Shown here: piece by piece, positions 11,658 to 35,918 of the stretch
How positions within the stretch are numbered: the first letter of the stretch is position 1
Layout: each line of letters begins with the position of its first letter
Origin: a virus
Length of the DNA stretch: 64,000 nt
Strand: one strand, 5' to 3'
Virus record (IMG/VR): IMGVR_UViG_3300016476_000893
Coordinates: 2,211-66,210 of that record
Position numbers and translations under genes: made by a program
Notes under the pieces: generated by a model
Database searches by the model: none
Seen by the model: only the letters and a program-made list of their open reading frames with translations
Told to the model about the DNA's origin: nothing

Positions 11658-12106
11658 TGGAGATTAAAAATATTCCACTAAAGCTATTATTGATGATGGC
11701 TTTTTTTGTCGGCTGCGAAAAACCAGTTGATAAAAATATTGATCAAGAAGAGTCAAGCTCAGAATCAGATTTTGTAATGACAAAAACTCTAAAAAGAGTT
11801 AAAGCTGAGTATGATTCAATGAGGGACAAAGATAAAGAAAATATATACAAGCAATTTTCTGGATCTTACTTATTTCTAAAAACCAACAAGTCTGTCAAAA
11901 AAACAAGTGACTTCGACCCAATTCTTGGAAGGGTCCAATCAGACTATGGGTGGAATAGAGAAAAATACCCAGAATTCACAGAGGCTGTATCTGACTTCTT
12001 GCTAGAACAAGGTTATGACGAGCCAAAAGTTTTGGATAATGACGAGGACAGAGAATGGTTCTGTCAGATTTTCTACTCACTATATATGGCTATAAAAAAT
12101 GAGTAA
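11657..12106 (+). CDS. putative lipoprotein
   Basis: Signal-like N-terminus KLLLMMAFFVG-C with lipobox-like Cys20. Confidence 0.6.
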   Translation: MEIKNIPLKLLLMMAFFVGCEKPVDKNIDQEESSSESDFVMTKTLKRVKAEYDSMRDKDKENIYKQFSGSYLFLKTNKSVKKTSDFDPILGRVQSDYGWNREKYPEFTEAVSDFLLEQGYDEPKVLDNDEDREWFCQIFYSLYMAIKNE

Positions 12107-14114
12107 TCAATATAACGGCTGGGTTGACGATCAGGGAAGTGTAGAATCTGTGATGCAGGAATTACCATTCCCAATTTTTGGCGATGTGTGGTCTCCAATT
12201 AAAGACTCTGGCAAGGGCAGGGTTGTACTATTGTACGAAATTGTCAAAAAGGTTGCTGGAAGCTTTCCTATTAGAACCCAATTGATTGGAGATTGTCAGC
12301 CTAAAGACACTCTTATTTTTGGTCCTGATTTTGTAAAAAAAATACAAGATATTAATATTGGGGATAGAGTTTATGCTGGAAATGGAGAGATTACAACCGT
12401 AATTTCTACTCTATGCAAACAATCAAATAACCCTATACTAACTATACACACAAAAGGGGGGCTTCCTCTCAAAGTAACGTCTGACCACAAGGTTTTAGCA
12501 TATCGCTTTGGTGAATTCGTAAATAGCAACAGTAAATGGCGAAGAAGGTATAGCCCAGGTCATCAACAAACATGTATAAATAATCGTGGAGTAGACACTA
12601 AACTTAAAGGAAATACTATTTTTGCAAATAGGGTTGCAGAATTAGTAAAATCCTCCGATCTTACAGAGGCGGATTATGTTTTATGTCCAATAAACATAGA
12701 AATTGATAACAAAATTCCTGATGATATGCTGCCTTACATGGGTGATAAGGAAGTCAGATGGATGATAGGTTTATTTTTGGGTGATGGCCACGCAAAAAAA
12801 ACAAGCAAAACTTTAGAGTGGGGTTGCACAACTGATGAACCCGACATAGAAGAAAGACTTTGCAAAGCTCTTGATATTTTAAATATAAAATGGAGATCGT
12901 ATTTTCATTGCAAAAGCAGCAACAAAGCTAGGAAAGTTTACACTCTAAAAACAGAAAATATTTTCAACTTATTTAAAAAATATTTCTATGATGATAATGG
13001 TAATAAAACTATTCCATCTTGGGCTATTAACGATGATGTCATTAGCGGATTATTAGATTCTGATGGTTACACATCAAGATCGTCTGGTAAAGCAAGGCAG
13101 GAATTTGAAAATACTAGCTTTTCTTTGGTTCATGGAGTTAGAATATGGGCTTTAAGAAACGGATATATACCAAGTCTCAATGAAAGACAAAGATTCGATA
13201 AAAGAACTAATAAATTAAACAAGAAGGTGTATAAAGTTTCTTGGTTAGTTGATAAAAGCTCTCGCAATCTATGGAAAGACGATCAGTATTTAGCAATGCC
13301 AATTGTTAAAATAGACGTAGAAGAGGGGCCGCATAATGAAGTTTATGACATCGGTGTAAAACACAATCTTCATACATTTATAACTGGTGCTGGCGTTTCA
13401 ATAAGCAACTGCGTATCTATGGGTGCCGCTTACGCAGTAGACGCTATCAAAGCTGTTGATATTTTCATTAAAAACGAAATGGAAGAATGGGTTGCTGAAA
13501 CTAGCACCGAAGATATATATGGTGGAAGTCGAGTGCAAATAGGCAAAGGTAGAATAGGCACTGGAGATGGATCGGTTGGTGCTTGGGCTGCTCAATATGT
13601 TAATAAATATGGAGCCTTGGCAAGACAGAAATATGGAAACATAGACTTAACGAAATATAATTCTAAAACAGCAAAAGCTTGGGGGATGCCTAGTAAAGGC
13701 GTTCCTCAAGAATTAATACCATTCTGCAAAGAGCATCCTGTAGAAGTCGTTTCTCAGGTATATACATACGCTGAAGTAAGAGACTTAATTGCTAACGGTT
13801 ACGCTGTAACAGTAGCTAGCTCTCAGGGTTTTTCTAGCAAAAGAGACTCAGAAGGTTTTGCTAGACCAGAAGGCACTTGGCAGCATCAAATGTCAATTCT
13901 AGGAGTTGATGACTCTTACAAGAGACCTGGTGTTTTAATACAAAATAGTTGGGGCGTTTGGAATAGCGGGCCTAAAAGACACAATCAGCCAGATGGATCG
14001 TTTTGGGTAGACGCTGACGTTTTAGAAAAAAGAATGTTGTCAAAAAAAGACTCTTGGGCATTTAGTGGTTATGGTGGATTTAAAGCTAGAAAACTAAACA
14101 CAAGGATATTCTAA
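12099..14114 (+). CDS. papain-like (C1/clan CA) cysteine peptidase containing an intein
   Basis: After removing the intein the extein reads TQLIGD-CVSMGAA (Q..GxC nucleophile), QHQMSILG (His) and LIQNSWG (Asn): a clan CA triad. Confidence 0.85.
   Translation: MSNQYNGWVDDQGSVESVMQELPFPIFGDVWSPIKDSGKGRVVLLYEIVKKVAGSFPIRTQLIGDCQPKDTLIFGPDFVKKIQDINIGDRVYAGNGEITTVISTLCKQSNNPILTIHTKGGLPLKVTSDHKVLAYRFGEFVNSNSKWRRRYSPGHQQTCINNRGVDTKLKGNTIFANRVAELVKSSDLTEADYVLCPINIEIDNKIPDDMLPYMGDKEVRWMIGLFLGDGHAKKTSKTLEWGCTTDEPDIEERLCKALDILNIKWRSYFHCKSSNKARKVYTLKTENIFNLFKKYFYDDNGNKTIPSWAINDDVISGLLDSDGYTSRSSGKARQEFENTSFSLVHGVRIWALRNGYIPSLNERQRFDKRTNKLNKKVYKVSWLVDKSSRNLWKDDQYLAMPIVKIDVEEGPHNEVYDIGVKHNLHTFITGAGVSISNCVSMGAAYAVDAIKAVDIFIKNEMEEWVAETSTEDIYGGSRVQIGKGRIGTGDGSVGAWAAQYVNKYGALARQKYGNIDLTKYNSKTAKAWGMPSKGVPQELIPFCKEHPVEVVSQVYTYAEVRDLIANGYAVTVASSQGFSSKRDSEGFARPEGTWQHQMSILGVDDSYKRPGVLIQNSWGVWNSGPKRHNQPDGSFWVDADVLEKRMLSKKDSWAFSGYGGFKARKLNTRIF
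12294..13409 (+). mobile_element. intein (372 aa) with LAGLIDADG homing endonuclease
   Basis: Block A CQPKDTLI, block B KVTSDHKV, MIGLFLGDG and ISGLLDSDG endonuclease motifs, block F EVYDIGV, C-terminus GVSISN followed by Cys+1 (13410-13412). Confidence 0.9.
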
Positions 14115-16515: not shown

Positions 16516-19275
16516 ATGAACGATTATTACTGGCTCAATGAAAATAGCAGGCTCTTTTTAAGTAGAGGTTATTTGTCTTCAGGAATGACACCAGAAGCTA
16601 GAATAAAAGAAATAGCTCAAAATGCTGAGAATATACTTTCAATAAAAGGTTTTGCTGAAAAATTTGAGAGATATATGGCAAAGGGTTTTTACTCTTTGTC
16701 AACTCCTGTGTGGTCTAATTTTGGAAATTCAAAAGGTCTTCCAGTTAGTTGTTTTGGTTCGTACATATCTGACAATATGGAGTCGATATTGTCAACAGTC
16801 TCTGAGGTCGGAATGATGTCAAAGATGGGCGGAGGAACTTCCGCCTATTTTGGAGATCTGCGACACAGGGGATCTATCATAGGTAAAGAATCCGAAAAAC
16901 GAGGCGAGTCTAGTGGCCCAGTGCATTTCATGGAGCTGTTTGACAAAGTTTCTGCTGTTGTGAGTCAAGGATCTACTCGCAGAGGGGCATTCGCAGCATA
17001 TTTGCCAATAGAACATAAAGACGCGGAAAGCTTCCTAAAAATACAAGCAAAAGGCAACCCAATACAAGACATGTCTTTCGGAGTTACAATAACTGATGAA
17101 TTCATGAACTCAATAATAAACGGTCATGAAGAAAATAGAAAATTGTGGGCCTCCATAATAAGAAAAAGATATGAAACTGGGTATCCATACATATTCTTCA
17201 CAGACACAGTAAATAAAAACGCTCCGCAGGTTTATAAAGACAAGAACTTAAAGATAAATGCGTCAAACCTTTGTGTCACTGGAGATCAAAGAGTTCCGTC
17301 TAATTATGGAATGTTGACAGCTAAGGAGCTTTATGAAATTGGCACAGAGTTAAATCTGTTTGATAATGATAAAATAGTAAAATCTTCTCCAATGAGATTA
17401 GTCGAAAAAGACGCTGATGTGTTTAAGATTACATTGGAAAATGGTATGACGCACACAATTACGTCATACCATAAAGTTTCTGTGTTTAATAAAACGTCTA
17501 AAGTAACAGAAGACATTGCTTGCAAAGATTTAAAAATTGGCGACTCCGTAGCTGTACAAACTAACAAGGGTATTTTTGGCGATAAAAATATGCCAAAGGA
17601 AGCCTTTCTACTTGGACTGTATCAAGCTGATGGAACACAATACAAAGATATTATAATGCTTGATTTGTGGCAGAACGATTTTGATCTTCTAGAAGAAGTG
17701 CAGTCGTACCACGATTATGTTTGCGATAAGTATAAAACTCAGGTTTCAACTTACAATGGAAGAACTTATGATAATCCTAAATTCCATGACTGTGTGGTGC
17801 AGGACGGGTCGCACTTGAAAAAGAGACTGGCTTCAAACGCTCTTAAAAAATCATTAAATTTTGAAAAGGGGTATGTTCCAGAATGGGTATGGTGCTCTGA
17901 TGAAGAAACTCAATGGCAGTACATTAGAGGTCTTTACTTTGCTGATGGAACGGCGTTTAAATCAACGTCTGGCGGTGAACCTATACAAATAGCATTAGCG
18001 TCTATTGACAGAGAATTTCTAAAAGAAATACAGCTAATTTTAGCAAATCTTGGAATGCAATCATCAATAAGAGTTCTAAGAAAAGAAGGTAAAAATTTAT
18101 TACCTAATGGTAGTGGTGGGTATTCATATTTTGATTCAAAAGAATGCTATCGACTTATTATTGGCAACAAAAACGACGCCATAATTTTTGAAAAGAACAC
18201 TGGGTTTTTAAGTAGAAAAAATGTTGACATAGACGATAGATTATATAGAGATAATACAAAGAAATTTTATAAAATCTCTTCTATAGAATATGTTGGCAAA
18301 GAAGATGTTTATTGTTGTACAGTCGAATCAGAAAATCATCATTGGATTTGCAACGGTGTTATTACACACAATTGCTCTGAAATAATGCTGTCTTCTGATA
18401 AAGATAACTCGTTTGTTTGTGTACTATCGTCTTTAAACTTAGTCCATTGGGACGAAATTATAAAGACCGATGCTATTGAAACAATGATCTACTTTTTAGA
18501 TGCTGTAAATGAAGAGTTCATACAGAAGGCAGAATCTATACCGTTCATGAGCAAGGCTTGTAATTTCGCTAGAAGTCAAAGAGCGCTCGGTATGGGCGTT
18601 TTAGGATGGCATAGTCTGTTACAATCGAAGATGATACCATTCGAGTCAATGAAAGCTAAATATTTAAATATTGAAATATGGGCCAATATTAGAAACAGAG
18701 CGGATTTAGCTACAAAATCATTGGCAAATAAATTTGGCGAGCCAGAGTTGTTAAAGGGTTATGGCATTCGTAATGTTACCACGTTAGCTGTAGCACCAAC
18801 AACATCAAGCTCATTTATATTGGGTCAAGTGAGTCAGTCAATAGAGCCTTTAAATTCTAATTATTTTGTTAACGCCTCTGCTAAAGGAAAGTTTCCATAT
18901 AAAAATGAATATTTAAAAAATCTTTTGTCGTCATATGGAAAAGATGATGATGCCACTTGGGATAGTATACTGATTAAGAGTGGGTCTGTTCAACATCTAG
19001 ACTTCTTAACTTCTGATGAAAAGATGGTGTTTAAGACCTTTAAAGAAATCTCTCAGCTTGAAATAATTATTCAAGCAGCTAATAGACAAAAGTATATAGA
19101 TCAAGCTCAGTCGCTAAATATTAACATACCTCCATCAGCACCTCCAAAAGATGTGAGCGAACTGCTTATAAACGGATGGAAGATGGGGATAAAAACATTC
19201 TATTACCAAAGAAGCGAAAATCCAGCACAAGAATTAGTAAGAAGTATATTAACATGTTCTTCATGTGAATCATAA
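16516..19275 (+). CDS. nrdA: ribonucleotide reductase class I alpha subunit with intein (no ATP cone)
   Basis: PVSCF, QGSTRRGA, ASNL-[intein]-CSEI, VAPTTSSS, KTFYY, C-terminal CSSCES; the N-terminus starts directly at the catalytic domain. Confidence 0.96.
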   Translation: MNDYYWLNENSRLFLSRGYLSSGMTPEARIKEIAQNAENILSIKGFAEKFERYMAKGFYSLSTPVWSNFGNSKGLPVSCFGSYISDNMESILSTVSEVGMMSKMGGGTSAYFGDLRHRGSIIGKESEKRGESSGPVHFMELFDKVSAVVSQGSTRRGAFAAYLPIEHKDAESFLKIQAKGNPIQDMSFGVTITDEFMNSIINGHEENRKLWASIIRKRYETGYPYIFFTDTVNKNAPQVYKDKNLKINASNLCVTGDQRVPSNYGMLTAKELYEIGTELNLFDNDKIVKSSPMRLVEKDADVFKITLENGMTHTITSYHKVSVFNKTSKVTEDIACKDLKIGDSVAVQTNKGIFGDKNMPKEAFLLGLYQADGTQYKDIIMLDLWQNDFDLLEEVQSYHDYVCDKYKTQVSTYNGRTYDNPKFHDCVVQDGSHLKKRLASNALKKSLNFEKGYVPEWVWCSDEETQWQYIRGLYFADGTAFKSTSGGEPIQIALASIDREFLKEIQLILANLGMQSSIRVLRKEGKNLLPNGSGGYSYFDSKECYRLIIGNKNDAIIFEKNTGFLSRKNVDIDDRLYRDNTKKFYKISSIEYVGKEDVYCCTVESENHHWICNGVITHNCSEIMLSSDKDNSFVCVLSSLNLVHWDEIIKTDAIETMIYFLDAVNEEFIQKAESIPFMSKACNFARSQRALGMGVLGWHSLLQSKMIPFESMKAKYLNIEIWANIRNRADLATKSLANKFGEPELLKGYGIRNVTTLAVAPTTSSSFILGQVSQSIEPLNSNYFVNASAKGKFPYKNEYLKNLLSSYGKDDDATWDSILIKSGSVQHLDFLTSDEKMVFKTFKEISQLEIIIQAANRQKYIDQAQSLNINIPPSAPPKDVSELLINGWKMGIKTFYYQRSENPAQELVRSILTCSSCES
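17272..18372 (+). mobile_element. intein (367 aa) with LAGLIDADG homing endonuclease in nrdA
   Basis: CVTGDQRV start, TITSYHKV block B, LLGLYQADG and IRGLYFADG, EDVYC, NGVITHN end, then Cys+1 of CSEI. Confidence 0.94.
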
Positions 19276-27273: not shown

Positions 27274-28278
27274 ATGATAACATGTTATTTAAGATCGTCA
27301 AGTCTGTCATGCCTAAGCATGTGTGAAATGAAATATTATTTTACATATGTATTAGGTATGAAAGATAAACAAAATAAAAAAGCCACTATGGGCACAATCA
27401 TGCATAGAGTTCTTCAAGTTCTTGCGGACAAAAAACTTGCAAAGGACAATAAAAAGAAGAAGTTAAAGAATGACGACATTCAAGACTTTACTTTCGCTGA
27501 GTGTGACGACATTGAGCTTGTAACCAAAGTTTGCTTCGAGTATTACGCAGAGCAAGAAAAGTCTTTAGATCTTACAGATGCTGACCTAAGAACGTGTACC
27601 TCTTGGGTGTATAAAGCGTTGGCATATAAAAAAGGTGCGCTAGACCCACGAAACCAAAACGTGTTTGCGACAGAGAAATTCTTTGACATAGAGATAAAAA
27701 AAGACTGGGCGAAGTACGACTATAAAATTGGCGACGAAAATATATCTGGCTACTTATCAATAAAAGGAACTGTTGACTTAATAATACAAGAAGATGAAAA
27801 ATATTTCCAGGTACTAGATTATAAGTCTGGTCGCAGACTGGATTGGGCAACAGGAAAAGAAAAGACTCAAGACGATTTACAAAAAGACCCGCAACTTCTT
27901 TTATATTACTACGCACTTAAAAATCTGTATCCAGATTGGTCATTCTATGTTAGTATTTACTATGTAAATGACGGCGGTTTGTTTGACATTGTTTTTGACG
28001 AAAAAGACTACGCAAAAGCAGAAAACATGCTCAGACAAAAGTTTGAATATATAAAAGCCGTAAAGCTTCCGAAACAAATATCAAATGATCAACAAAATTG
28101 GAAATGCACAAAGTTATGTAAATTTTCCGAAATAGACCAAGAATCTGGAAAAACAATTTGTCAGCACTTCCACGATATGATAAAATCCAAAGGTATAGAT
28201 GCGGTAACTAGGGATCACGCCAATCTGAAAAAGATCACAAAATATCAAGATGGTGGTGGTAGAATAGCGAAGGATTAA
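27274..28278 (+). CDS. PD-(D/E)xK exonuclease (RecB/AddB-like), probable Fe-S staple
   Basis: S.SSL...CEMKY, GT.MH, KGTVDLI, LDYKSG, QLLLY; C-terminal CTKLC...C plus one N-terminal Cys. Confidence 0.85.
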   Translation: MITCYLRSSSLSCLSMCEMKYYFTYVLGMKDKQNKKATMGTIMHRVLQVLADKKLAKDNKKKKLKNDDIQDFTFAECDDIELVTKVCFEYYAEQEKSLDLTDADLRTCTSWVYKALAYKKGALDPRNQNVFATEKFFDIEIKKDWAKYDYKIGDENISGYLSIKGTVDLIIQEDEKYFQVLDYKSGRRLDWATGKEKTQDDLQKDPQLLLYYYALKNLYPDWSFYVSIYYVNDGGLFDIVFDEKDYAKAENMLRQKFEYIKAVKLPKQISNDQQNWKCTKLCKFSEIDQESGKTICQHFHDMIKSKGIDAVTRDHANLKKITKYQDGGGRIAKD

Positions 28279-28279
28279 G

Positions 28280-30118
28280 ATGTTAAGAAATCATTCACAT
28301 TACTCTCTTTTAATGTCAACTCAGAAACCAAAAGGCATTGCCGCGAAGTGTAAAAGTTTCGGCTATAGTCATGCTGGAATCTGTGATGTTGGTACTATAA
28401 GCGGTGTGGTGTCTTTTATTAAGGCTTGCAATGACAACAACCTAAAACCCATAATAGGTTCTGAAATAGTTTTAAAAGATGGATCTAGCCTGTCTTTGTT
28501 TTGCAAGAATAAAGATGCGTGGAATGACATGCTTGTTTTAATATCTAAATGCAATGATCCAGAAAATTATGATAATGGAGCTAAGATATCATTTGAAGAC
28601 CTTATAGCCACGATAAATACAAAGAATTTCATATGTGTTGATGGATATATCGGAAGCTTCTTGTGCTCTAAGATAGTTAATCAGCAATCATATGGGCTAA
28701 CATATCATGATATACACGACATATGGTGGGCAGAAAACACTGTTGACGGATCTAATAGTGGATATGATAAAGTAAAATCTCATATTCAGTATATGAAAAG
28801 TCTATTCAGTGATTCATATTTTATAGAACTTGAGCAATCAGAATCAGAATCTTTTCAAGTTAATAAGTTTTTATGTAAAATTCTTACAGACGTATGCTTG
28901 GAAATAGGATGTAAGATTATTCCAAATACATCTAGTTACTATTCTGATAGAAAAGACTCTTTAGACCATAGAGTTCTTTTATGCTCTAGATTAAAGACAA
29001 CTATAAAAAATCTTCAATCAAAAATTGAAGAGTCGTCGCAGTTTGATCTTTTGAAGTTTATCAGAAGCAATGATCATTATATCAAACAGGTAAATGAAAA
29101 TGACTTCGCAGACATATTATCTAAAATTGAAGACATAAACATACTGTCAAACCCAAGGCTTCCAAAATTTGATTGCCCAAATAACTATTCAGAAAATGAA
29201 TATTTGAAACAGTTATGTAGGGATGGCTGGAAGAGATTGATAAACACAGGAGTTGATAAATCTAAACACGAAGAATACAAAAATAGAGTGTTGTACGAGC
29301 TTGATGTAATTCAAGAAGCAAATCTTGCTGGATACTTTTTGATAGTTCAAGATTATGTAAATCATTTTAGAAACCTTGGATATCTTATTGGTCCTGGCCG
29401 TGGAAGCGGTGCCGGCTCTTTAGTTTGCTATCTGATTGGAATTACTCTTGTTGACCCAATTCCATACGGATTGTTGTTTGAGAGGTTTTACAATAAAGGG
29501 CGAAACACAAAAGATCATATTTCTTTACCAGATATCGACGTTGACTTTCCTCCATCTATTAGAGAAGATGTAATATCTTATATAAAAACGAAGTATAGCG
29601 AGGAAAGAGTTTGTCAGATGTTAACATTTGGTCGCCTACAAGGGAAGTCGATTCTTAAAGAGGTGTTAAGAGTTAATGAGAGTTGTTCTCCAGACCAAAT
29701 GAATAAAATTACTAAGTTCATACCAGACGAGGCCGAGATATCTGACCAACTTGAAAATATGGACCACCCATCTATACTAATGTGGTCACTCGAAAATATC
29801 AAAGAAAAGCTGTCAGACTATTGTTGGATTGATGAAGACGGTAATCTAAAAGGAGATTACGCAAAAGAATTTGAGCAAGCTATCAGACTTGAGGGCGTTT
29901 TTAAATCTCAAGGAAAACATGCTGCCGGAGTCGTTATATCATCAGAAAAACTTGACCAATCGTGCCCAATGGTAAAGGCGGCTAGAACTTCGGAAAAAAT
30001 AGCTGGAATGGAAATGGCCGATCTAGAAGCTATTGGTTGCGTGAAGTTTGATATTCTTGGAGTTTCAGTATTAGAAAAAGTTCAAATGACGTGCGATGGA
30101 GAACGGGATTATGAGTAG
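28280..30118 (+). CDS. dnaE: DNA polymerase III alpha, N-terminal half (PHP + palm/thumb)
   Basis: NHSHYSL, GRGSGAGSLV, FERF.N.GR, PDIDVDF, GKHAAGVVI, VKFDILG; stops about 17 aa after KFDILG. Confidence 0.93.
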   Translation: MLRNHSHYSLLMSTQKPKGIAAKCKSFGYSHAGICDVGTISGVVSFIKACNDNNLKPIIGSEIVLKDGSSLSLFCKNKDAWNDMLVLISKCNDPENYDNGAKISFEDLIATINTKNFICVDGYIGSFLCSKIVNQQSYGLTYHDIHDIWWAENTVDGSNSGYDKVKSHIQYMKSLFSDSYFIELEQSESESFQVNKFLCKILTDVCLEIGCKIIPNTSSYYSDRKDSLDHRVLLCSRLKTTIKNLQSKIEESSQFDLLKFIRSNDHYIKQVNENDFADILSKIEDINILSNPRLPKFDCPNNYSENEYLKQLCRDGWKRLINTGVDKSKHEEYKNRVLYELDVIQEANLAGYFLIVQDYVNHFRNLGYLIGPGRGSGAGSLVCYLIGITLVDPIPYGLLFERFYNKGRNTKDHISLPDIDVDFPPSIREDVISYIKTKYSEERVCQMLTFGRLQGKSILKEVLRVNESCSPDQMNKITKFIPDEAEISDQLENMDHPSILMWSLENIKEKLSDYCWIDEDGNLKGDYAKEFEQAIRLEGVFKSQGKHAAGVVISSEKLDQSCPMVKAARTSEKIAGMEMADLEAIGCVKFDILGVSVLEKVQMTCDGERDYE

Positions 30119-30464
30119 ATTTAAAAGATTGAATGTACCATATAGGTTTCTATCAATGTTTAACATCATTCATGATAAAGAGTATATTCAAATAGAGCCG
30201 TTTTTTAATAAAAACGGTTATTATTTAGACAGAGAAACTAATAAAACTTGGGTTGAGATAAATGGTACGGGATGGCTTTATTCAACGCCTGATTATTTTA
30301 AAGATCAATTAGAAACTAATTGTGGAAGTAATAGACTTTCTAATGAGAAATTTTCAATGCTGTCTGGACTTATTTCTAGTAAAATTATTGATTACAGAAA
30401 ACATAAAGATTTATACAGAATGTATCTAATTCAGCACGCAAAAAGAGAACTTAGGATTTATTAA
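30111..30464 (+). CDS. hypothetical protein (AT-rich)
   Basis: ORF track 30096-30464; ATG 30111 overlaps the dnaE-N stop; 3' end overlaps the convergent HNH gene by 14 nt. Confidence 0.55.
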   Translation: MSRFKRLNVPYRFLSMFNIIHDKEYIQIEPFFNKNGYYLDRETNKTWVEINGTGWLYSTPDYFKDQLETNCGSNRLSNEKFSMLSGLISSKIIDYRKHKDLYRMYLIQHAKRELRIY

Positions 30465-31551
30465 AATCTGATATTATTTTACACCAGTTTATAAATTCTT
30501 GATCAGTCATATTTTGTTTCATTATGTTTATTTTTTTATGAACCCATTGAATATTATCAATTGTATAACCTTTGTTTGAGTCTATCCTATCTAACGAGGC
30601 CGTAAAATTACCAGTAATATAATCATTGTTATTTTCTGGCATTGTTAATTCAACACCACTTATTTTACACTTACATTTTTGAATTAAAAACAAGTCATAT
30701 ATTTGTTCTTTTGATACTTCAAACTTTAGACATCTTATTTGTGCCGAGCTTTTTATAGAATTAAAATGACTACCGTTAATTAACTTGTATCCACTTGATC
30801 TTTTTGCTTCTACATATATTTTTTTTATTTTAACGCCAAGTCTTTTTAAATGTCTTAAAATTGTCGTATGACAAAAACCAAAGTATTTAGCTATGTCTGA
30901 CGAACTATAGTTTTTATTATACATTTCCACTAATTCATTATCAAAGCTTCTATTCCAAACCTTTTTTCTAAAATTTTTATATCCACTCCTTATTAATAGT
31001 TTTTTGATAGTTTCTGTTGACACATTGAAATGCGATGCGGTTTTAATTAAAAGTTCATTATTTTTTTTATGATACTCGACAACCTCATCACAATTTAATG
31101 ATTTTGACTTAATATGATTTTTTATATCAACACCGGCTTTTTTTAATATTTTAGATAAAGTATTTTCTGATATGTTATAAATTGTAGCAATTTGAAATAT
31201 CAATTTACCTTGGTTATAAAGATTTATAATTTCTTCAATTGGTGCGTTACAAGAATTATATCTTAATTTTATATTGTTTTTATGTAATGTATTTAAAACG
31301 GAGTTTTTTGAAATATTCATTTCTTTAGCAATTGTTTTTACAGACTGGATTTTTTTAACATACCTATCTATAATCTGATTAGAATCGACAAGTGGAAATC
31401 TATACTCATAAACATTGTTTAGTTTTAATTGTTTTATAATTGTGGTCTTACTATATCCAGTAACCCTAGCTATTTCATTTATTGGCGTTTTATTTTCAAA
31501 CATTCTTATTATTTCAGAATAATCTATTTTTTTCTGCACCGTCTGCTCCAT
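30451..31551 (-). mobile_element. free-standing HNH/His-Me-like endonuclease gene with five tandem HTH repeats
   Basis: C-terminal QKCKCKISG...ASLDRIDSNKGYTIDNIQWVHKKINIMK; five ~45-aa HTH repeats; antisense to the operon and AT-rich. Confidence 0.75.
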
Positions 31552-31616
31552 TTTAAGTTAAATGATATAAGTTTACATATGTTATATACTCCAATCACTA
31601 AAAATAAGGGAAAATA

Positions 31617-32315
31617 ATGAATTATCGCGATTTCATCTGCATCGATTTCGAGACCACTTCTAAATATTCTTCAACAACCCAACCAGTGCAGATTGCTGCT
31701 GTCGCCATTCATGGCAGAAAGTTGGAGATCAAACCTGGCACAGAGTTTCAGTCGCTAATAAGACCGATCTTCGATGAAGAGGAATGTAAGAGACTAAACT
31801 TAGATCCTCTAACTGATGACGCTATATCAAAACATGGCAAAACAAGAGAAATGTTGGAAAATGCACCAAGTCTTAAATCTGTTTGGCAGAATTTTACTCA
31901 ATACTGTAAGCAGTTTAATACGGGTACTAGCAATTTTACAGCACCAATTGCGACTGGATACAATATAAAAAACTTCGATATGCCAATAGTCCAAAGGATT
32001 TGTGCTTCAGAGCCATACAAATACGGACCAGTAAATAAAGAGGGAAAGCAGGATTTATTCAGTATCATTACAAGTGTGGATATGTTTGATTTCATGTTCG
32101 CGTTTTTTGAAAACAATCAAGAAGTAAACTCTTTAAGTGCGGACAATTTAATTCGTGGATATATGGGATACTCTAAAGGCACCGCTCACGATGCCATGTC
32201 TGACGTAATGATGACAGCGGAGCTATTTTGCAGAACAATGCATATGATGCGGAGAGTTATGTCAAAGAATGACCTAAAGGGCGCATTTGCAAGAAAGAAA
32301 AACTCTAATGAGTAA
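31617..32315 (+). CDS. dnaQ: DEDDh 3'-5' exonuclease (DnaQ/epsilon-like)
   Basis: ExoI IDFETT, ExoII GYNIKNFD, ExoIII AHDAMSD. Confidence 0.88.
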   Translation: MNYRDFICIDFETTSKYSSTTQPVQIAAVAIHGRKLEIKPGTEFQSLIRPIFDEEECKRLNLDPLTDDAISKHGKTREMLENAPSLKSVWQNFTQYCKQFNTGTSNFTAPIATGYNIKNFDMPIVQRICASEPYKYGPVNKEGKQDLFSIITSVDMFDFMFAFFENNQEVNSLSADNLIRGYMGYSKGTAHDAMSDVMMTAELFCRTMHMMRRVMSKNDLKGAFARKKNSNE

Positions 32316-33831
32316 TTTAGACATTATAAATTGCAATTACAATGATCCTTATGTCTGGGATATGATAGGCGACGGCAGAGTAAAAGGTTGTTTTCAGATT
32401 GAAAGTTTTTTAGGTAAAGATTGGTGTAAAAAGTTAAAACCTAGGAATATAAACGAGTTAGCTGACTTGATTTCACTGATTCGCCCAGGATGCTTGTCTA
32501 TGGCGCAGATCTATTGCGATAGAAGATCGAAAAAGGCTGAAATAGTAAGTCTTCATCCGCTAATAGACGATATTCTAAAAGACACGTTTGGTATCATTGT
32601 TTATCAAGAACAGTCCATGATGATTGCTCAAAAGTTGGCTGGATTCACTCTTGAGCAAGCTGATGATCTCAGAAAGGCGATTGGGAAGAAGAAAGCCGAC
32701 CTCATGAAGAAGGTTAGAACTCAATTCATTGTGGGATGTATTGCCAACAATGTTCCAGAGTCAAAGGCTATTGAAATATTTGACATTATCGAATTATCGA
32801 ATAGGTACTCTTTTAACAAATCACACGCCGTATGTTACGCATACAATTCATACTGGTCAGCTTATCTAAAATATCATAGACCAAGAAAGTTTTTAACAAA
32901 CTGGCTTAAATTGGCTTGTGAAAAGGTAGACCCAGACGTAGAGGTAAAAGAAAACGTAATGTCTGCAAAGTCTGACGGTATAGACGTTTTTGGCCCTCAT
33001 TATAAGTCGCTATCCGATGATTTCTTTTGGGACTCACAAAACAAAGGCGTGAGATTCGGAATATGCAATATCAAACATGTTGGCATGGTTCATTATGAAC
33101 AAGTGAAAAATATAATTTCTGAGTTAAAAGATCCTACATGGACTGAACTATGCCTCTCGCTTCTAGATGTTAACAAGAGGTCGATTGAAAACATGATATC
33201 CGTTGGAGTATTTTCTGGGCTAAAAAAGACTAGAACAGAAATGCTTCACGAGCATTCGTGTTTATTAAATTTAACAGAAAATGAGATTTTAGCACTTAAA
33301 ACGATCCTTGATAGAAACGCCCCAATAGTAGAAAATTTAAGAGCCTTTGTTTCTAAAGGAACTAAAAAAGACGGCGGTTTAATATCGACGAAAGGTAGAC
33401 TGTCTAAGATTGAAGATATAATAACGAGAATGTTAAACCCTGGTAGATGTCTTAAAGATAACCCTTCGGTATATTCTAGGTTAGAGTCTGACTTATTGGG
33501 ATGTTCTATATATCATTCAGAACTATCATCATCGGCAGACGCTGTATATGCTAATACGACCTGTTCAGAAATAGCTGACGGCAAATTGTCTAAATCGACA
33601 CTAGCGGCTATAATAAAAAGGATAAGGGTCCATAGAACTAAGAAAGGCGATGACATGTGTTTTCTAACAATAGAAGATAATTCTGGAGAATTAGAAAATG
33701 TTGTTATTTTCACTGAGTTGTATGGCCAAAACAAAGATATAATTTATCAGGATTCAACTGTCTTGATAACTGGCGAAATAAAGGACAAGGAAAGAAGATC
33801 TTTCATAGTCGAGAGTATCTTTCAAATATAG
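32308..33831 (+). CDS. dnaE: DNA polymerase III alpha, C-terminal half (fingers, HhH, OB)
   Basis: GCFQIES, LISLIRPG, FGIIVYQEQ, ADDLRKAIGKKK, YSFNKSHA, OB fold TKKGDDMCFLTIED; ATG 32308 overlaps the dnaQ stop. Confidence 0.93.
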   Translation: MSNLDIINCNYNDPYVWDMIGDGRVKGCFQIESFLGKDWCKKLKPRNINELADLISLIRPGCLSMAQIYCDRRSKKAEIVSLHPLIDDILKDTFGIIVYQEQSMMIAQKLAGFTLEQADDLRKAIGKKKADLMKKVRTQFIVGCIANNVPESKAIEIFDIIELSNRYSFNKSHAVCYAYNSYWSAYLKYHRPRKFLTNWLKLACEKVDPDVEVKENVMSAKSDGIDVFGPHYKSLSDDFFWDSQNKGVRFGICNIKHVGMVHYEQVKNIISELKDPTWTELCLSLLDVNKRSIENMISVGVFSGLKKTRTEMLHEHSCLLNLTENEILALKTILDRNAPIVENLRAFVSKGTKKDGGLISTKGRLSKIEDIITRMLNPGRCLKDNPSVYSRLESDLLGCSIYHSELSSSADAVYANTTCSEIADGKLSKSTLAAIIKRIRVHRTKKGDDMCFLTIEDNSGELENVVIFTELYGQNKDIIYQDSTVLITGEIKDKERRSFIVESIFQI

Positions 33832-33844
33832 AATCGAGGAATCA

Positions 33845-34279
33845 ATGGAACTAGAAAAAATAATAGAACAGAACAAAAACTTGATCAAGAATATAGCTAG
33901 GAAGTATTTTGTAAAAAATTCTGTTTTTTCCATAGAAGATTTAGAGCAGGTTGGTTATTTAAGTTTAACAAAAAATTATAAAAAATACGATCCTCAAAGA
34001 GCTAGTATAACAACTTTCATAACGGTGTGCGTTAAGAACGATATCATAAAATACATAAAGAAGCAGAAGATCAAAAAACAACCTCAGTATAAAATGGGTG
34101 AAGCGTCTTATGTTCAAAATGATTTGATCGGTGATATAACGCCAAGTGATCCAGATATAAAAAATATTATAGAGATGAAGTCTCATGGATTCTCGATAAG
34201 AGAAATATCTGATAAAACTAATAAATCTGAAAAACAAATTAGAAGACTTATTAAAAAAATAAGAGCGTTAAATGAATAG
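33845..34279 (+). CDS. minimal sigma70-family RNA polymerase sigma factor (regions 2 and 4)
   Basis: IEDLEQVGYLSL...YDPQR.ASITTF (region 2); GFSIREISDKTNKSEKQIRRLIKK (region 4 HTH). Confidence 0.82.
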   Translation: MELEKIIEQNKNLIKNIARKYFVKNSVFSIEDLEQVGYLSLTKNYKKYDPQRASITTFITVCVKNDIIKYIKKQKIKKQPQYKMGEASYVQNDLIGDITPSDPDIKNIIEMKSHGFSIREISDKTNKSEKQIRRLIKKIRALNE

Positions 34280-35918
34280 AAAAAAAAGAGTTTTATTTCT
34301 CACCGAAGCGACATATCTGAATACTGGATATGCCACGTACTCTAAAAATATAATTGATAGCCTATTTAATACCGGCAAATATGAAATAGCTGAGTTTTCC
34401 ATATACGGGTCTGAGGAAGATCCGCGTAGAAGTACAATAAAATGGAAAAACTATCCAAACATACCAAAGCCGACAAACAGTATAGATCTAGAGACGTATA
34501 ATTCTAACCCATCAAATCAGTTTGGTGAGTGGCGATTTGAGAGAGTTTGTGTTGATTTTAAGCCGGATGTAGTGTTGTGCATAAGAGACTTCTGGATGGA
34601 CGCCTTTGTTTACAAGTCTCCATTCAGAAGAATATTTAAATGGGTGTGGATGCCAACTGTAGACGGATCTCCACAGAATGAAGAATGGGTGGACTGCTTC
34701 TGCAATGCAGATGGTATAATAACCTACTCTGATTGGGCCTACAACGTTCTGAAAGAACAGTCTGGTGATTCTATCAAATATATAGGAACAGCATCACCAA
34801 CAGCGTCTGAGCACTTTTATCCAATGGATAAGACTGCTATACGCAAGGAGTTTGGTTTAGACCCTAACTCCAAAATAATTGGCACTGTAATGAGAAACCA
34901 GCGAAGAAAGTTATTTCCGGTATTATTCAAAGCCTTTTCGTCATATCTCAAAATGACTGGCGATAAAAATACTTTCCTTTACTGTCACACCTCGTACCCA
35001 GATAACGGCTGGGATCTTGGAAATTTGTTGCTGGAAAACGAAATATCTACGAGAGTGTTATTTTCATATATCTGCTCTAAATGCGGGTCGTTGGAGGTGT
35101 CAAAATTTAACGACGCTATAAAATGTTGTGATAGATGTAGATCTTTTAATTCAACACCATCAAATGTAGCAAACGGTGTTCCAGATTCAATACTAGCAAA
35201 AATTTACAACACGTTTGATTTATATATACAGTGCTCAAACTCTGAAGGTTTTGGTGTTCCTCAAGTTGAAGCGGCTGCTTGTGGCGTACCAGTAGCTTGC
35301 ACAAAATATTCAGCTATGGAAGACGTAATACAGAAGCTTTCAGCCTTCCCAATTAATCTAGATGGAAAGTATAAAGAGCTTGAGACTGGGTGCGACAGAG
35401 CAGTTCCATCTGTAGATTCTATGGTAGAAATATTTAACAAGTTTTTCTCTTGCTCGGATGAGGATAAAGCTTGTATTAGAGAAAAAGTAAGATCGCAATT
35501 TTTGCAAAACTATTCAGTAGATAAATCATCTTCTATTTGGCAACAAGCTATAGACTCTCTTGAGTTTGCTGACTGGTCGATTCCAAAAAGTATAAAATCT
35601 GAAACATCTTTTGCTCACAGCGAAATGACAAACTCTAGCTTTATTGATTTTTGCTGCAATAACTATCTTATTGGCGAGCATATGCACAGAAGCCACAAAA
35701 TTAGAAGTCTAAAAAGAGATTTAAACTTTTCTTCGTATAGACCGTCAAAAGATGGTATTTTTAGCACGGAAAGCTCTTTGTTTGGAAAGTCTAACCCAGT
35801 AACTCTTAATAGGGATAAGGTTTTAGAAACTTTCATATCTTTGGCGAAAAATTCTAACTTTTGGGAAAATGTAAGATCTGGTATTATAACATTGGAGAGA
35901 GAGTCATGGTTGAGATAG
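34272..35918 (+). CDS. glycosyltransferase family 4 (GT-B) with Cys-rich insertion
   Basis: RVLFLTE..YLNTGY, RNQRRK, IYNTFDLYIQCSNSEGFGVPQVEAAACG; CSKC...CCDRC insertion. Confidence 0.88.
   Translation: MNRKKRVLFLTEATYLNTGYATYSKNIIDSLFNTGKYEIAEFSIYGSEEDPRRSTIKWKNYPNIPKPTNSIDLETYNSNPSNQFGEWRFERVCVDFKPDVVLCIRDFWMDAFVYKSPFRRIFKWVWMPTVDGSPQNEEWVDCFCNADGIITYSDWAYNVLKEQSGDSIKYIGTASPTASEHFYPMDKTAIRKEFGLDPNSKIIGTVMRNQRRKLFPVLFKAFSSYLKMTGDKNTFLYCHTSYPDNGWDLGNLLLENEISTRVLFSYICSKCGSLEVSKFNDAIKCCDRCRSFNSTPSNVANGVPDSILAKIYNTFDLYIQCSNSEGFGVPQVEAAACGVPVACTKYSAMEDVIQKLSAFPINLDGKYKELETGCDRAVPSVDSMVEIFNKFFSCSDEDKACIREKVRSQFLQNYSVDKSSSIWQQAIDSLEFADWSIPKSIKSETSFAHSEMTNSSFIDFCCNNYLIGEHMHRSHKIRSLKRDLNFSSYRPSKDGIFSTESSLFGKSNPVTLNRDKVLETFISLAKNSNFWENVRSGIITLERESWLR

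What the first reader, a model, noticed from the sequence alone, without database searches (positions are those of the whole stretch)
28280..33831. Intein-free split DNA polymerase III alpha, halves 2.2 kb apart
Seen: the N-half ends just after VKFDILG, so all three catalytic Asp (DIDVD and KFD) are in it. The C-half restarts at LDIINC..D..VWDM..G...GCFQIES, the next conserved DnaE segment, so little sequence is lost. Neither half carries intein blocks, and the YSFNKSH site used by the cyanobacterial split intein is intact. Three genes lie between the halves. Inference: a heterodimeric C-family replicase split at the palm/fingers boundary and assembled non-covalently.
Basis: partly seen in the sequence, partly recalled or inferred. 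Interest (0 to 1): 0.75.

Follow-up and report, generated by a model that had tools for sequence, protein, structure and literature searches.

The report
Two-piece phage polymerase around its proofreader
This uncultured freshwater phage, like a very large group of aquatic relatives, encodes its main DNA-copying enzyme (Pol III alpha, DnaE) as two separate proteins with the proofreading-exonuclease gene between them and no self-splicing element to rejoin them, so the enzyme most likely works as a non-covalent complex.

Summary
ORF 28280-30118 carries the PHP domain, palm and thumb with all three catalytic Asp. ORF 32308-33831 carries the fingers, HhH and OB parts. The break maps to E. coli alpha residues 564/584. 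No residue is lost and there is no room for an intein.

The order N-half, DnaQ-like exonuclease, C-half recurs in about 58 IMG/VR contigs at 34-88% identity. Of the 150 best 50%-identity clusters, 137 are stand-alone N-halves.

- Both halves and the exonuclease are under strong purifying selection (dN/dS 0.02-0.06).
- A complete 148-kb split-type relative has no second dnaE.
- Contigs of two further studies each carry the whole locus in one piece.
- The C-half start overlaps the exonuclease stop (ATGAGTAA).
- The HNH gene and the 122-aa ORF are variable add-ons.
- In relatives other sites of this gene are broken by split inteins with a homing-endonuclease gene. This break never is.
- A complex model supports palm-fingers docking, but may rest on likeness to solved alpha structures.

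I found no paper describing this arrangement. The scan noted it earlier on other DNA (e1-3283299). Verdict: a real two-subunit alpha, a new variant of split polymerases. Biochemistry is untested.

The parts
28280..30118 (+). dnaE N-half (612 aa): PHP domain, palm and thumb, plus the first helix of the fingers; catalytic D418, D420, D591
   Evidence: Pfam PF02811 and PF07733 1-260/260. PDB alignment reaches E. coli residue 564. Invariant residues in 42 homologues. dN/dS 0.03-0.05 against L001/L002.
30111..30464 (+). ORF 'O' (117 aa from the ATG at 30111; 122 aa from 30096), unknown function, variable insert. Its ATG overlaps the N-half stop (ATGAGTAG).
   Evidence: Homologues were found only in L001/L045 and L002 among 69 loci. 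dN/dS 0.19. No Pfam, PHROG or Atlas lead. Sequence of the overlap.
30451..31551 (-). Free-standing homing-endonuclease-like gene (366 aa): tandem HTH/NUMOD1-like repeats plus a C-terminal HNH/EndoVII-type nuclease; AT-rich optional insert
   Evidence: Pfam HTH_7, HTH_38 and NUMOD1. PHROG endonuclease, endonuclease VII and HNH families. GC 0.288 in 30001-32000 against about 0.35. Homologues lie at other places in L020 and L062, and there is none between the halves in the other loci.
31617..32315 (+). DnaQ/epsilon-like DEDDh 3'-5' exonuclease (232 aa), the conserved gene between the two dnaE halves; conserved C-terminal tail motif (..KGAFA.. here, KFEKAFA in most relatives)
   Evidence: Pfam RNase_T E 3.2e-15. 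Found between the N- and C-halves in about 58 loci. D10, E12, D121, H191, D196 and F224 are at least 95% conserved in 41 unique proteins. dN/dS about 0.04.
32308..33831 (+). dnaE C-half (507 aa from the ATG at 32308; the ORF opens at a TTG at 32287): fingers, HhH/beta-binding region, OB fold. Its ATG overlaps the exonuclease stop (ATGAGTAA).
   Evidence: Pfam PF17657 18-166/166; HHH_6 and OB fall below their cut-offs. PDB alignment starts at E. coli residue 584. Finger motifs are invariant in 44 homologues. Sequence of the overlap. The C ATG lies within 10 nt of the exonuclease stop in 25 of 31 non-redundant loci.

Best explanation
The phage's replicative C-family polymerase is made as two polypeptides. 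Alpha-N (PHP, palm, thumb, first finger helix) holds the three catalytic aspartates. Alpha-C (rest of the fingers, HhH/beta-binding region, OB fold) holds the finger motifs. They assemble non-covalently into one alpha-like enzyme. No intein, intron or recoding joins them. The separate DEDDh exonuclease encoded between them is the proofreader, as epsilon is in the E. coli Pol III core. The genes form one co-oriented block (N, optional small genes, exonuclease, C) with overlapping stop and start codons, which would favour matched production of the subunits. The arrangement is old and shared by a large clade of aquatic phages. In this genome a homing-endonuclease-like HNH gene and a 122-aa ORF have additionally settled in the gap. 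Shown: gene structure, break position, absence of splicing elements, conservation, purifying selection, independent assemblies. Inferred: complex formation (model only), activity, translational coupling, proofreading role.
For: Break and content. In the non-redundant loci the N ORF ends a few residues after ..VKFDILG..LSKIMEI.. and the C ORF starts at M..FDINNF..VWDLICDG.TKGVFQLES. A fused relative (L066/L067) reads straight through the same residues with no extra length, so there is no intein relic. The order N-exo-C holds in about 58 of 69 IMG/VR loci at 34-88% identity, in varying reading frames. Of the 150 best 50%-identity representatives, 137 are stand-alone N-halves ending at most 30 aa after the palm; 111 of the 120 best C-half clusters are stand-alone. 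dN/dS is 0.02-0.06 for N, exonuclease and C. Catalytic Asp are invariant in the N-halves and finger motifs (GxFQxES, RPG, YQEQ, GKKK, RYSFNKSH) in the C-halves, so each half lacks residues the other supplies. Only one palm-domain ORF occurs in a complete 148-kb DTR-bounded split-type genome (G005) and in seven incomplete split-type records. Rfam finds nothing at E<=1 across 27500-34500. Contigs from two further studies (X2, X3) each span the locus in one piece. Complex model of N290-612 with C1-325: score 0.86, best of 3 controls 0.00. That mark was reached by 58 of 80 solved complexes and 2 of 110 mismatched pairs. The runs agree in at least 91% of contacts and the partner's pLDDT is at least 88. 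Exonuclease DEDDh residues are conserved. Stop/start overlaps.
Against: There is no biochemical or expression evidence of any kind. The complex model may pass from memory of solved single-chain alpha structures and used my own alignments, so it shows likeness rather than binding. The window's record is only about 46% complete by CheckV, so a second dnaE elsewhere in this particular genome is excluded only by analogy with the complete relative. In this genome the minus-strand HNH gene interrupts the co-oriented block, so the exonuclease and C-half may need their own promoter; the promoter scan is not above chance. HhH and OB Pfam matches are below their cut-offs. No sliding-clamp gene was detected, so how processivity is achieved is unknown.
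Confidence: 0.8

Rival explanations
1. The two halves act separately rather than as a stable heterodimer. For example, alpha-N would be a distributive polymerase/PHP enzyme, and alpha-C a free DNA-binding or clamp-binding accessory that meets it only on DNA.
For: Nothing measures affinity, and the model cannot. The halves are separate genes in every split locus, and other genes are sometimes inserted between the exonuclease and C (6 of 31 loci).
Against: Finger motifs invariant in the C-half line the nucleotide and template site of solved alpha structures (established knowledge of Taq and E. coli alpha). A palm without them should be inactive. The N-half retains the first finger helix, which the model buries in the C-half (residues 595-612 against 170-205). 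The two halves are kept together in one gene block in every split locus.
Confidence: 0.1
2. The HNH homing endonuclease (or another mobile gene) broke an intact dnaE recently in this genome. That would make it a 'fractured gene' either decaying or rescued by a cryptic splicing element.
For: An HNH/HTH homing-endonuclease-like gene lies between the halves in an AT-rich stretch. Relatives have true fractured-gene breaks with split inteins elsewhere in dnaE.
Against: The same break exists in about 58 loci that have no HNH gene there. L003-L005 have N-exo-C with no other gene between. No intein residues or extra length exist at the break. dN/dS is 0.03-0.05.
Confidence: 0.04
3. The halves are joined at the RNA or translation level (intron splicing, trans-splicing, ribosomal bypass) to give one polypeptide.
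For: No RNA data could be laid, so the idea is not directly excluded.
Against: There is no Rfam intron match at E<=1 or in relatives L001/L006. The gap holds a conserved, selected protein gene with its own start. In L003 and L048 the N stop abuts or overlaps the exonuclease start, leaving no room for intron structure. The frames of N, exonuclease and C vary among loci.
Confidence: 0.03
4. Assembly chimera or pseudogene pair.
For: The source is a metagenome-assembled, incomplete virus record.
Against: Contigs of two further studies each span the locus in one piece. Hundreds of homologous stand-alone halves exist. Purifying selection is strong.
Confidence: 0.02

Closest known systems
Cyanobacterial split DnaE (dnaE-n / dnaE-c with a naturally split intein; Wu, Hu & Liu 1998; Caspi et al. 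2003, as cited in PMC2677866)
   Same: The catalytic alpha subunit of a C-family replicase is encoded by two genes.
   Different: There the halves end and start with intein fragments and are ligated by protein trans-splicing. That break lies just before CFNKSH and the genes are far apart. Here there is no intein, the break is about 170 residues upstream at the palm/fingers border, YSFNKSH is intact, and the halves sit 2.2 kb apart in one gene block.
'Fractured genes' of metagenomic phages (Dassa, London, Stoddard, Pietrokovski 2009, PMC2677866): split intein plus a free-standing homing endonuclease between adjacent gene halves, including three DnaE loci
   Same: Adjacent halves of a phage dnaE with a gene between them. 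In this window one of those genes is a homing-endonuclease-like HNH gene. Relatives of this very gene (L001, L062, L063, L066) carry a textbook fractured break at YSFNK|SH, with split-intein ends and a Vsr-like (DUF559/NUMOD3) endonuclease ORF.
   Different: At the palm/fingers break there are no intein parts. The conserved intervening gene is a cellular-type proofreading exonuclease, not a homing endonuclease.
Split 'minimal' Pol III alpha of T4-like (group 2.2) jumbo phages (Iyer, Anantharaman, Krishnan, Burroughs, Aravind 2021, PMC7824862)
   Same: An intein-free phage Pol III alpha homologue made of two stand-alone proteins predicted to reconstitute one enzyme.
   Different: That version is stripped to the catalytic core and has no PHP or other domains. 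It is split between the NTP-binding and the Mg/template-binding subdomains, its genes are distant, and it accompanies a family-B replicase. Here the alpha is full-size, is the only polymerase seen, is broken after the palm, and has the exonuclease gene between the halves.
Intein-free split family-B polymerases: Methanothermobacter PolB1/PolB2 (Kelman, Pietrokovski, Hurwitz 1999) and gp43 of some T4-related phages (Petrov, Ratnayaka, Karam 2010). Both are cited from my own knowledge and were not checked here.
   Same: A replicative polymerase encoded by two genes whose products associate without splicing. In the phage case the split is linked to inserted mobile DNA.
   Different: A different polymerase family and fold, and no proofreader gene nested in the break.
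E. coli Pol III core (alpha-epsilon-theta)
   Same: The polymerase and a separate DEDDh proofreading subunit are encoded as distinct proteins. The exonuclease here keeps all DEDDh residues and a conserved C-terminal tail that could be a docking peptide.
   Different: Alpha is itself in two pieces. The exonuclease gene lies inside the dnaE locus. No theta homologue was recognised, although a conserved 75-aa ORF ('S') precedes the exonuclease gene in most relatives and is absent from this window.

Membership tests
DnaE-type C-family DNA polymerase (Pol III alpha) | N-terminal PHP domain | tested here: met
   PF02811 E 1.1e-18, 68.6 bits against a cut-off of 26.4, N-half residues 2-186.
DnaE-type C-family DNA polymerase (Pol III alpha) | Pol-beta-like palm with three catalytic aspartates | tested here: met
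   PF07733 1-260/260, E 4.4e-70. D418, D420 and D591 are invariant in 42 sequences. The N-half aligns to E. coli 278-564.
DnaE-type C-family DNA polymerase (Pol III alpha) | Fingers domain with conserved motifs (FQxES, RPG, YQEQ, GKKK, YxFNKSH) | tested here: met
   PF17657 18-166/166, E 1.7e-44. The motifs are invariant in 44 C-halves. The C-half aligns to E. coli 584-900.
DnaE-type C-family DNA polymerase (Pol III alpha) | HhH/beta-binding region and C-terminal OB fold | tested here: inconclusive
   HHH_6 scores 23.3 bits (cut-off 25.6) and the OB fold 24.6 bits (cut-off 27). There is a weak alignment to Taq 1044-1118. No clamp-binding motif was tested.
DnaE-type C-family DNA polymerase (Pol III alpha) | One continuous polypeptide | tested here: not met
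   There are two ORFs with a stop at 30116-30118 and a new start at 32308. The same holds in about 58 related loci.
Split-intein DnaE (cyanobacterial type) | N- and C-intein fragments at the ends of the two halves | tested here: not met
   No intein Pfam family at E<=0.01. Only 12+10 unaligned residues cover a 19-residue stretch of E. coli alpha. The fused relative L066 has the same length through the junction.
Split-intein DnaE (cyanobacterial type) | Break next to the FNKSH motif | tested here: not met
   RYSFNKSH is intact, about 170 residues into the C-half.
Fractured genes (Dassa et al. 2009) | Split intein flanking the break | tested here: not met
   Same evidence as for the split-intein rows above. 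By contrast the feature is present at YSFNK|SH in relatives L001, L062, L063 and L066.
Fractured genes (Dassa et al. 2009) | Free-standing homing-endonuclease gene between the halves | tested here: met
   An HNH/HTH ORF lies at 30451-31551. It is absent from the break in the other loci, so it is not what defines this split.
Minimal split Pol III alpha of jumbo phages (Iyer et al. 2021) | Core-only protein without PHP, split inside the nucleotidyltransferase module, genes far apart | tested here: not met
   PHP, fingers and OB are present. The break lies after the complete PF07733 match. The halves are 2.2 kb apart.
Intron-interrupted phage gene (group I/II intron) | Recognisable intron RNA between exons | tested here: not met
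   There are no Rfam matches at E<=1 in 27500-34500. The gap holds conserved protein genes.
Pol III core-like polymerase plus DnaQ proofreader pair (works like) | Separate DEDDh exonuclease with intact catalytic residues next to the polymerase | tested here: met
   RNase_T E 3.2e-15. D10, E12, D121, H191 and D196 are at least 95% conserved.
Pol III core-like polymerase plus DnaQ proofreader pair (works like) | Exonuclease docks on the PHP domain through a C-terminal peptide | not tested
   Only a conserved tail motif was seen.

The most novel reading that the evidence does not exclude
The nested gene order would be functional rather than accidental. On this reading these phages build an obligate three- or four-subunit core (alpha-N, a small protein where present, epsilon-like exonuclease, alpha-C). 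The order N - exo - C and the overlapping stops and starts would programme co-translational assembly, and the active polymerase would form only when the proofreader is made. The split itself would have arisen when the small-ORF-plus-exonuclease cassette moved into the gene; in fused relatives such as L066 that cassette lies just upstream of dnaE. That would be a natural, intein-free, evolutionarily stable split site in a replicase, usable for engineering two-piece Pol III enzymes.
Probability: 0.25. Interest if true: 0.75.

Novelty: new variant of a known kind. Interest (0 to 1): 0.6.

Why it matters
Replicative polymerases are almost always single catalytic chains. The classic exception in this family, cyanobacterial DnaE, is repaired by protein splicing. 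Here a whole, very diverse clade of aquatic phages keeps alpha in two pieces with no repair, cut just after the palm, and keeps the proofreader gene in the cut. More than 130 clusters at 50% identity show the stand-alone N-half.

- This gives a naturally validated split site for C-family polymerases.
- It offers a test case for how subunit gene order and translational coupling serve assembly of a replisome.
- It provides an internal contrast: the same gene is broken elsewhere by split inteins plus homing endonucleases.
- It matters for annotation, because pipelines label both halves simply 'DNA polymerase III subunit alpha', so these genes can be mistaken for frameshifted or fragmentary ones.

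Tried and rejected
- Group I/II intron or other RNA element in the gap: Rfam E-value scans of 27500-34500 and of L001 and L006 gave nothing.
- Expression evidence: no RNA holder is listed for the locus. The read-laying job showed DNA contigs only.
- I first read the 0.65 word share of runs X2-X4 as an HNH-less allele. Laying the contigs showed the HNH gene is present and the lower share comes from about 1.6% SNPs.
- Homology between the window's 122-aa ORF 'O' and the conserved 75-aa ORF 'S' of relatives: hhalign probability 0.2%, rejected. The protein atlas gave no usable lead for either. Pfam and PHROGs gave none.
- Polarity of the split (ancestral or derived): a careful IQ-TREE of 49 rows leaves the deep forks open. 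Split and fused lineages sit in one polytomy, and a single origin is neither shown nor ruled out. The first FastTree placement of the fused L067 inside the split clade is not supported.
- Sliding-clamp gene (PF00712): none in this record or in four relatives, including one complete genome. A divergent clamp or use of the host clamp remains open.
- Cultured relatives: tblastn against 50,697 GenBank phage records gave at most 31% identity, and the best hits checked are contiguous (fused).
- Host: only a 41%-identical copy on a contig binned with an uncultured Flavobacteriales MAG. That is too weak to count.
- Literature: four full-text searches (plus reading) found no description of this arrangement.

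Full report
WHAT IS THERE. The window is 64 kb of a 69,423-bp linear IMG/VR virus record that CheckV rates about 46% complete. The locus sits in a co-oriented replication block: DnaB-type helicase, primase, dNMP kinase, PD-(D/E)XK nuclease, the dnaE locus, then a sigma-factor gene.

ORF 28280-30118 (612 aa) matches Pfam PHP and the whole DNA_pol3_alpha model, positions 1-260 of 260. ORF 32287/32308-33831 matches DNA_pol3_finger from position 18 to 166, with weaker HhH and OB matches.

Three ORFs lie between the halves:
- A 122-aa ORF ('O') with no family.
- A minus-strand 366-aa protein with tandem HTH repeats and a C-terminal HNH/EndoVII-type nuclease, in the most AT-rich stretch of the window (GC 0.288).
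- A 232-aa RNase_T/DnaQ-like exonuclease.

WHERE THE BREAK IS. Against solved structures, the N-half aligns to E. coli alpha up to residue 564 and the C-half from residue 584. The figures are 625/643 for Taq and 589/605 for M. tuberculosis. The 12 unaligned C-terminal residues of the N-half and the 10 N-terminal residues of the C-half account for the 19 E. coli residues between them. Nothing is missing, and there is no room for an intein, whose two parts need roughly 100 and 35 residues (Dassa et al. 2009, PMC2677866).

Pfam finds no intein family in either half. Rfam finds no intron or other RNA family at E<=1. D418, D420 and D591, which match E. coli D401, D403 and D555 by alignment and by my knowledge of that enzyme, are invariant in 42 N-halves. 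The finger motifs, including RYSFNKSH, are invariant in 44 C-halves.

One refinement applies. The C-half starts at position 18 of Pfam's finger model, so the N-half keeps the first finger helix.

THE SPLIT IS A CLADE TRAIT. Two scans of IMG/VR returned 69 loci. tblastn and ORF tracing show the order N-half, exonuclease, C-half in about 58 of them, at 34-88% identity to the window. The N ORF ends a few residues after ..VKFDILG..LSKIMEI.. and the C ORF begins at M..FDINNF..VWDLICDG.TKGVFQLES. The reading frames of the three genes vary from locus to locus.

An exhaustive HMMER search of 1.84 billion representatives gave 5,122 hits at E<=1e-30. Among the best 150 clusters at 50% identity:
- 137 are stand-alone N-halves that end within 30 residues of the palm.
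- 6 are fused.
- 7 are fragments or carry extra sequence after the palm without a C-half.

Of the best 120 C-half clusters, 111 are stand-alone.

A few relatives are fused. L066/L067 is a complete 158-kb genome with terminal repeats. It reads ..VKFDILGVDILSKIDKIAKYANIDLDNWED.. in a single ORF, with the exonuclease gene immediately upstream. That comparison shows directly that the split forms carry no extra peptide at the break. This matters because earlier notes of this scan on other phage dnaE splits reported 'dead intein relics', and none is present here.

IS IT FUNCTIONAL? dN/dS is 0.02-0.06 for the N-half, the exonuclease and the C-half in three pairs of loci, with synonymous sites near or at saturation. 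A complete split-type relative (G005 = L063; 148 kb, terminal repeats, 100% complete) contains a single palm-domain ORF of 525 aa. Seven incomplete split-type relatives and the window's own record also show only one. No intact dnaE backs up the pieces.

One contig in each of two further studies (X2, X3) spans the whole 6.5-kb stretch collinearly, with 103 differences and 2 gaps. A third study holds it in pieces. This excludes a chimera.

The exonuclease keeps all five DEDDh residues (D10, E12, D121, H191, D196) and a conserved C-terminal tail motif, KFEKAFA in most relatives and KGAFA here, with F224 at least 95% conserved.

HOW IT MOST LIKELY WORKS. The catalytic aspartates lie in one protein. 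The finger residues that shape the nucleotide and template site in solved alpha structures lie in the other. The enzyme should therefore be active only as a complex (inference).

A complex model of N290-612 with C1-325 scored 0.86 against a best control of 0.00. That mark was reached by 58 of 80 solved complexes and 2 of 110 mismatched pairs. The three runs agree in at least 91% of contacts and the partner's pLDDT is at least 88. The modelled interface has two parts:
- The retained finger helix and tail of the N-half (595-612) packs on C-half helices 170-205.
- The GRGS..FERF region (367-408) meets the FNKSH region.

This copies the intramolecular palm-fingers packing of solved alpha chains, so the pass may come from memory. 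It shows likeness, not binding.

Gene layout points the same way. The C-half ATG overlaps the exonuclease stop (ATGAGTAA, 32308-32315) and the ORF O ATG overlaps the N-half stop (ATGAGTAG, 30111-30118). In 25 of 31 non-redundant loci the C-half ATG lies within 10 nt of the exonuclease stop, and in 20 it overlaps it. That fits translational coupling and matched subunit production (inference). The exonuclease is the obvious proofreader, as epsilon is for E. coli alpha. Its tail motif is a candidate docking peptide (speculative and untested).

WHAT IS VARIABLE. The HNH gene and ORF O are not part of the conserved design.
- O has homologues only in L001/L045 and L002.
- HNH homologues lie elsewhere in L020 and L062.
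- L003-L005 have N-exo-C with nothing else between, and in L048 the N stop overlaps the exonuclease start.
- Most loci of the big clade instead carry a conserved 75-aa ORF ('S') between the N-half and the exonuclease. It also precedes the exonuclease in the fused L066. It is not detectably related to O.
- L001 and L006 add a YpsA/SLOG-family gene.
- Some loci have extra genes between the exonuclease and the C-half.

The intergenic joints of this block are thus landing sites for mobile genes. The window's HNH gene is best read as a free-standing homing endonuclease that settled there.

INTERNAL CONTRAST. In L001 (83-88% identical to the window), L062, L063 and L066 the C-half is broken again at YSFNK|SH. 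There the upstream piece ends in an intein N-part (C-L-D-P.. after FNK). A Vsr-like (DUF559/NUMOD3) endonuclease ORF follows. The downstream piece starts with an intein C-part ending ..VTSN before SH. That is exactly the 'fractured gene' architecture of Dassa et al.. The lineage does use inteins to mend breaks, yet the palm/fingers break has none in any locus.

EVOLUTION. A careful tree of 49 rows (417 columns of palm plus the start of the fingers) leaves the deep forks unresolved. Four split lineages and three fused lineages emerge from one polytomy. The starred branches force no more than one change. I cannot say whether the split arose once or whether fused forms are re-fusions. The S-exonuclease pair lies upstream of the fused gene in L066 and inside the gene elsewhere. 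This suggests the cassette moved as a unit (inference).

COMPARISON WITH WHAT IS KNOWN. Split replicases are known in several forms:
- Cyanobacterial DnaE, with a split intein.
- Fractured genes, with a split intein plus a homing endonuclease.
- The minimal two-piece Pol III of T4-like jumbo phages (Iyer et al. 2021).
- Intein-free split family-B polymerases (from my own knowledge).

This case shares the principle but differs from each in break position, in the absence of an intein, in the full-size alpha and in the nested proofreader gene. I found no paper in the held library that describes it. GenBank phage records hold nothing closer than 31% identity. The scan itself noted the same arrangement earlier on another genome (e1-3283299), and my results agree with that note.

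I file it as a new variant of a known kind. It is real, ancient and widespread, and it is biochemically untested.

Noticed in passing
L001:11488-14343 (also L062:3497-6443, L063:7941-10842, L066/L067): In close and distant relatives the C-half is broken at YSFNK|SH by a textbook 'fractured gene'. The parts are an intein N-part, a free-standing Vsr-like (DUF559/NUMOD3) endonuclease ORF and an intein C-part. The window's copy is uninterrupted at this site.
   Followed up: partly
L006:7989-10642: A 57-64%-identical relative on a 157-kb contig has its N-half broken again just before the catalytic SLPDIDVD. Piece 1 ends ..RFSRDKISFDEYEYNEKIN. About 0.56 kb follows. Piece 2 starts with an 85-residue extension of no known family. 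There is no Rfam intron hit and no Pfam hit. This may be a third intein-free piece or an unrecognised element.
   Followed up: partly
L011:7086-7304 and equivalents in about 30 non-redundant loci; L066:5195-5446: A conserved ORF 'S' of about 75 aa (..YKSVIFSGC..C.L..YQVWSD.H..Y..IDDAV.KF.ELK) always lies directly upstream of the exonuclease gene, both in split loci and in the fused L066. It has no Pfam or Atlas lead. It may be a small replisome subunit (theta-like role is speculative). It is absent from the window.
   Followed up: partly
window 31617-32315, residues about 215-226 of the exonuclease: A conserved C-terminal tail motif follows the DEDDh domain (KFEKAFA in most relatives, DLKGAFA here; F224 at least 95% conserved). 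It resembles short docking peptides such as clamp-binding or alpha-binding motifs. This was not tested.
   Followed up: no
L001:9820-10311, L006:10614-11120: A YpsA/SLOG-family gene (Pfam PF06908, E 1.9e-18) is inserted right after the N-half in two relatives. The window has none.
   Followed up: no
window 30196-30219: A 10-bp-stem hairpin with T/A runs on both sides (bidirectional terminator-like) lies inside ORF O, about 80 nt after the N-half stop. It could end N-half transcription or shield the convergent HNH transcript. The scan's hit count is not above chance.
   Followed up: no
window 16516-19275 and 12099-14114: The ribonucleotide reductase large subunit carries an endonuclease-like insert (residues about 282-510, PHROG endonuclease). 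The 671-aa ORF has a LAGLIDADG match. The genome is rich in intein and homing elements, as earlier notes of the scan also say.
   Followed up: no
L071 (Flavobacteriales MAG contig CAXDOW010000022.1): A 41%-identical stand-alone C-half lies on a 24.6-kb contig binned with an uncultured Flavobacteriales genome. This is a weak hint at the host range of the clade, or a binning artefact.
   Followed up: no
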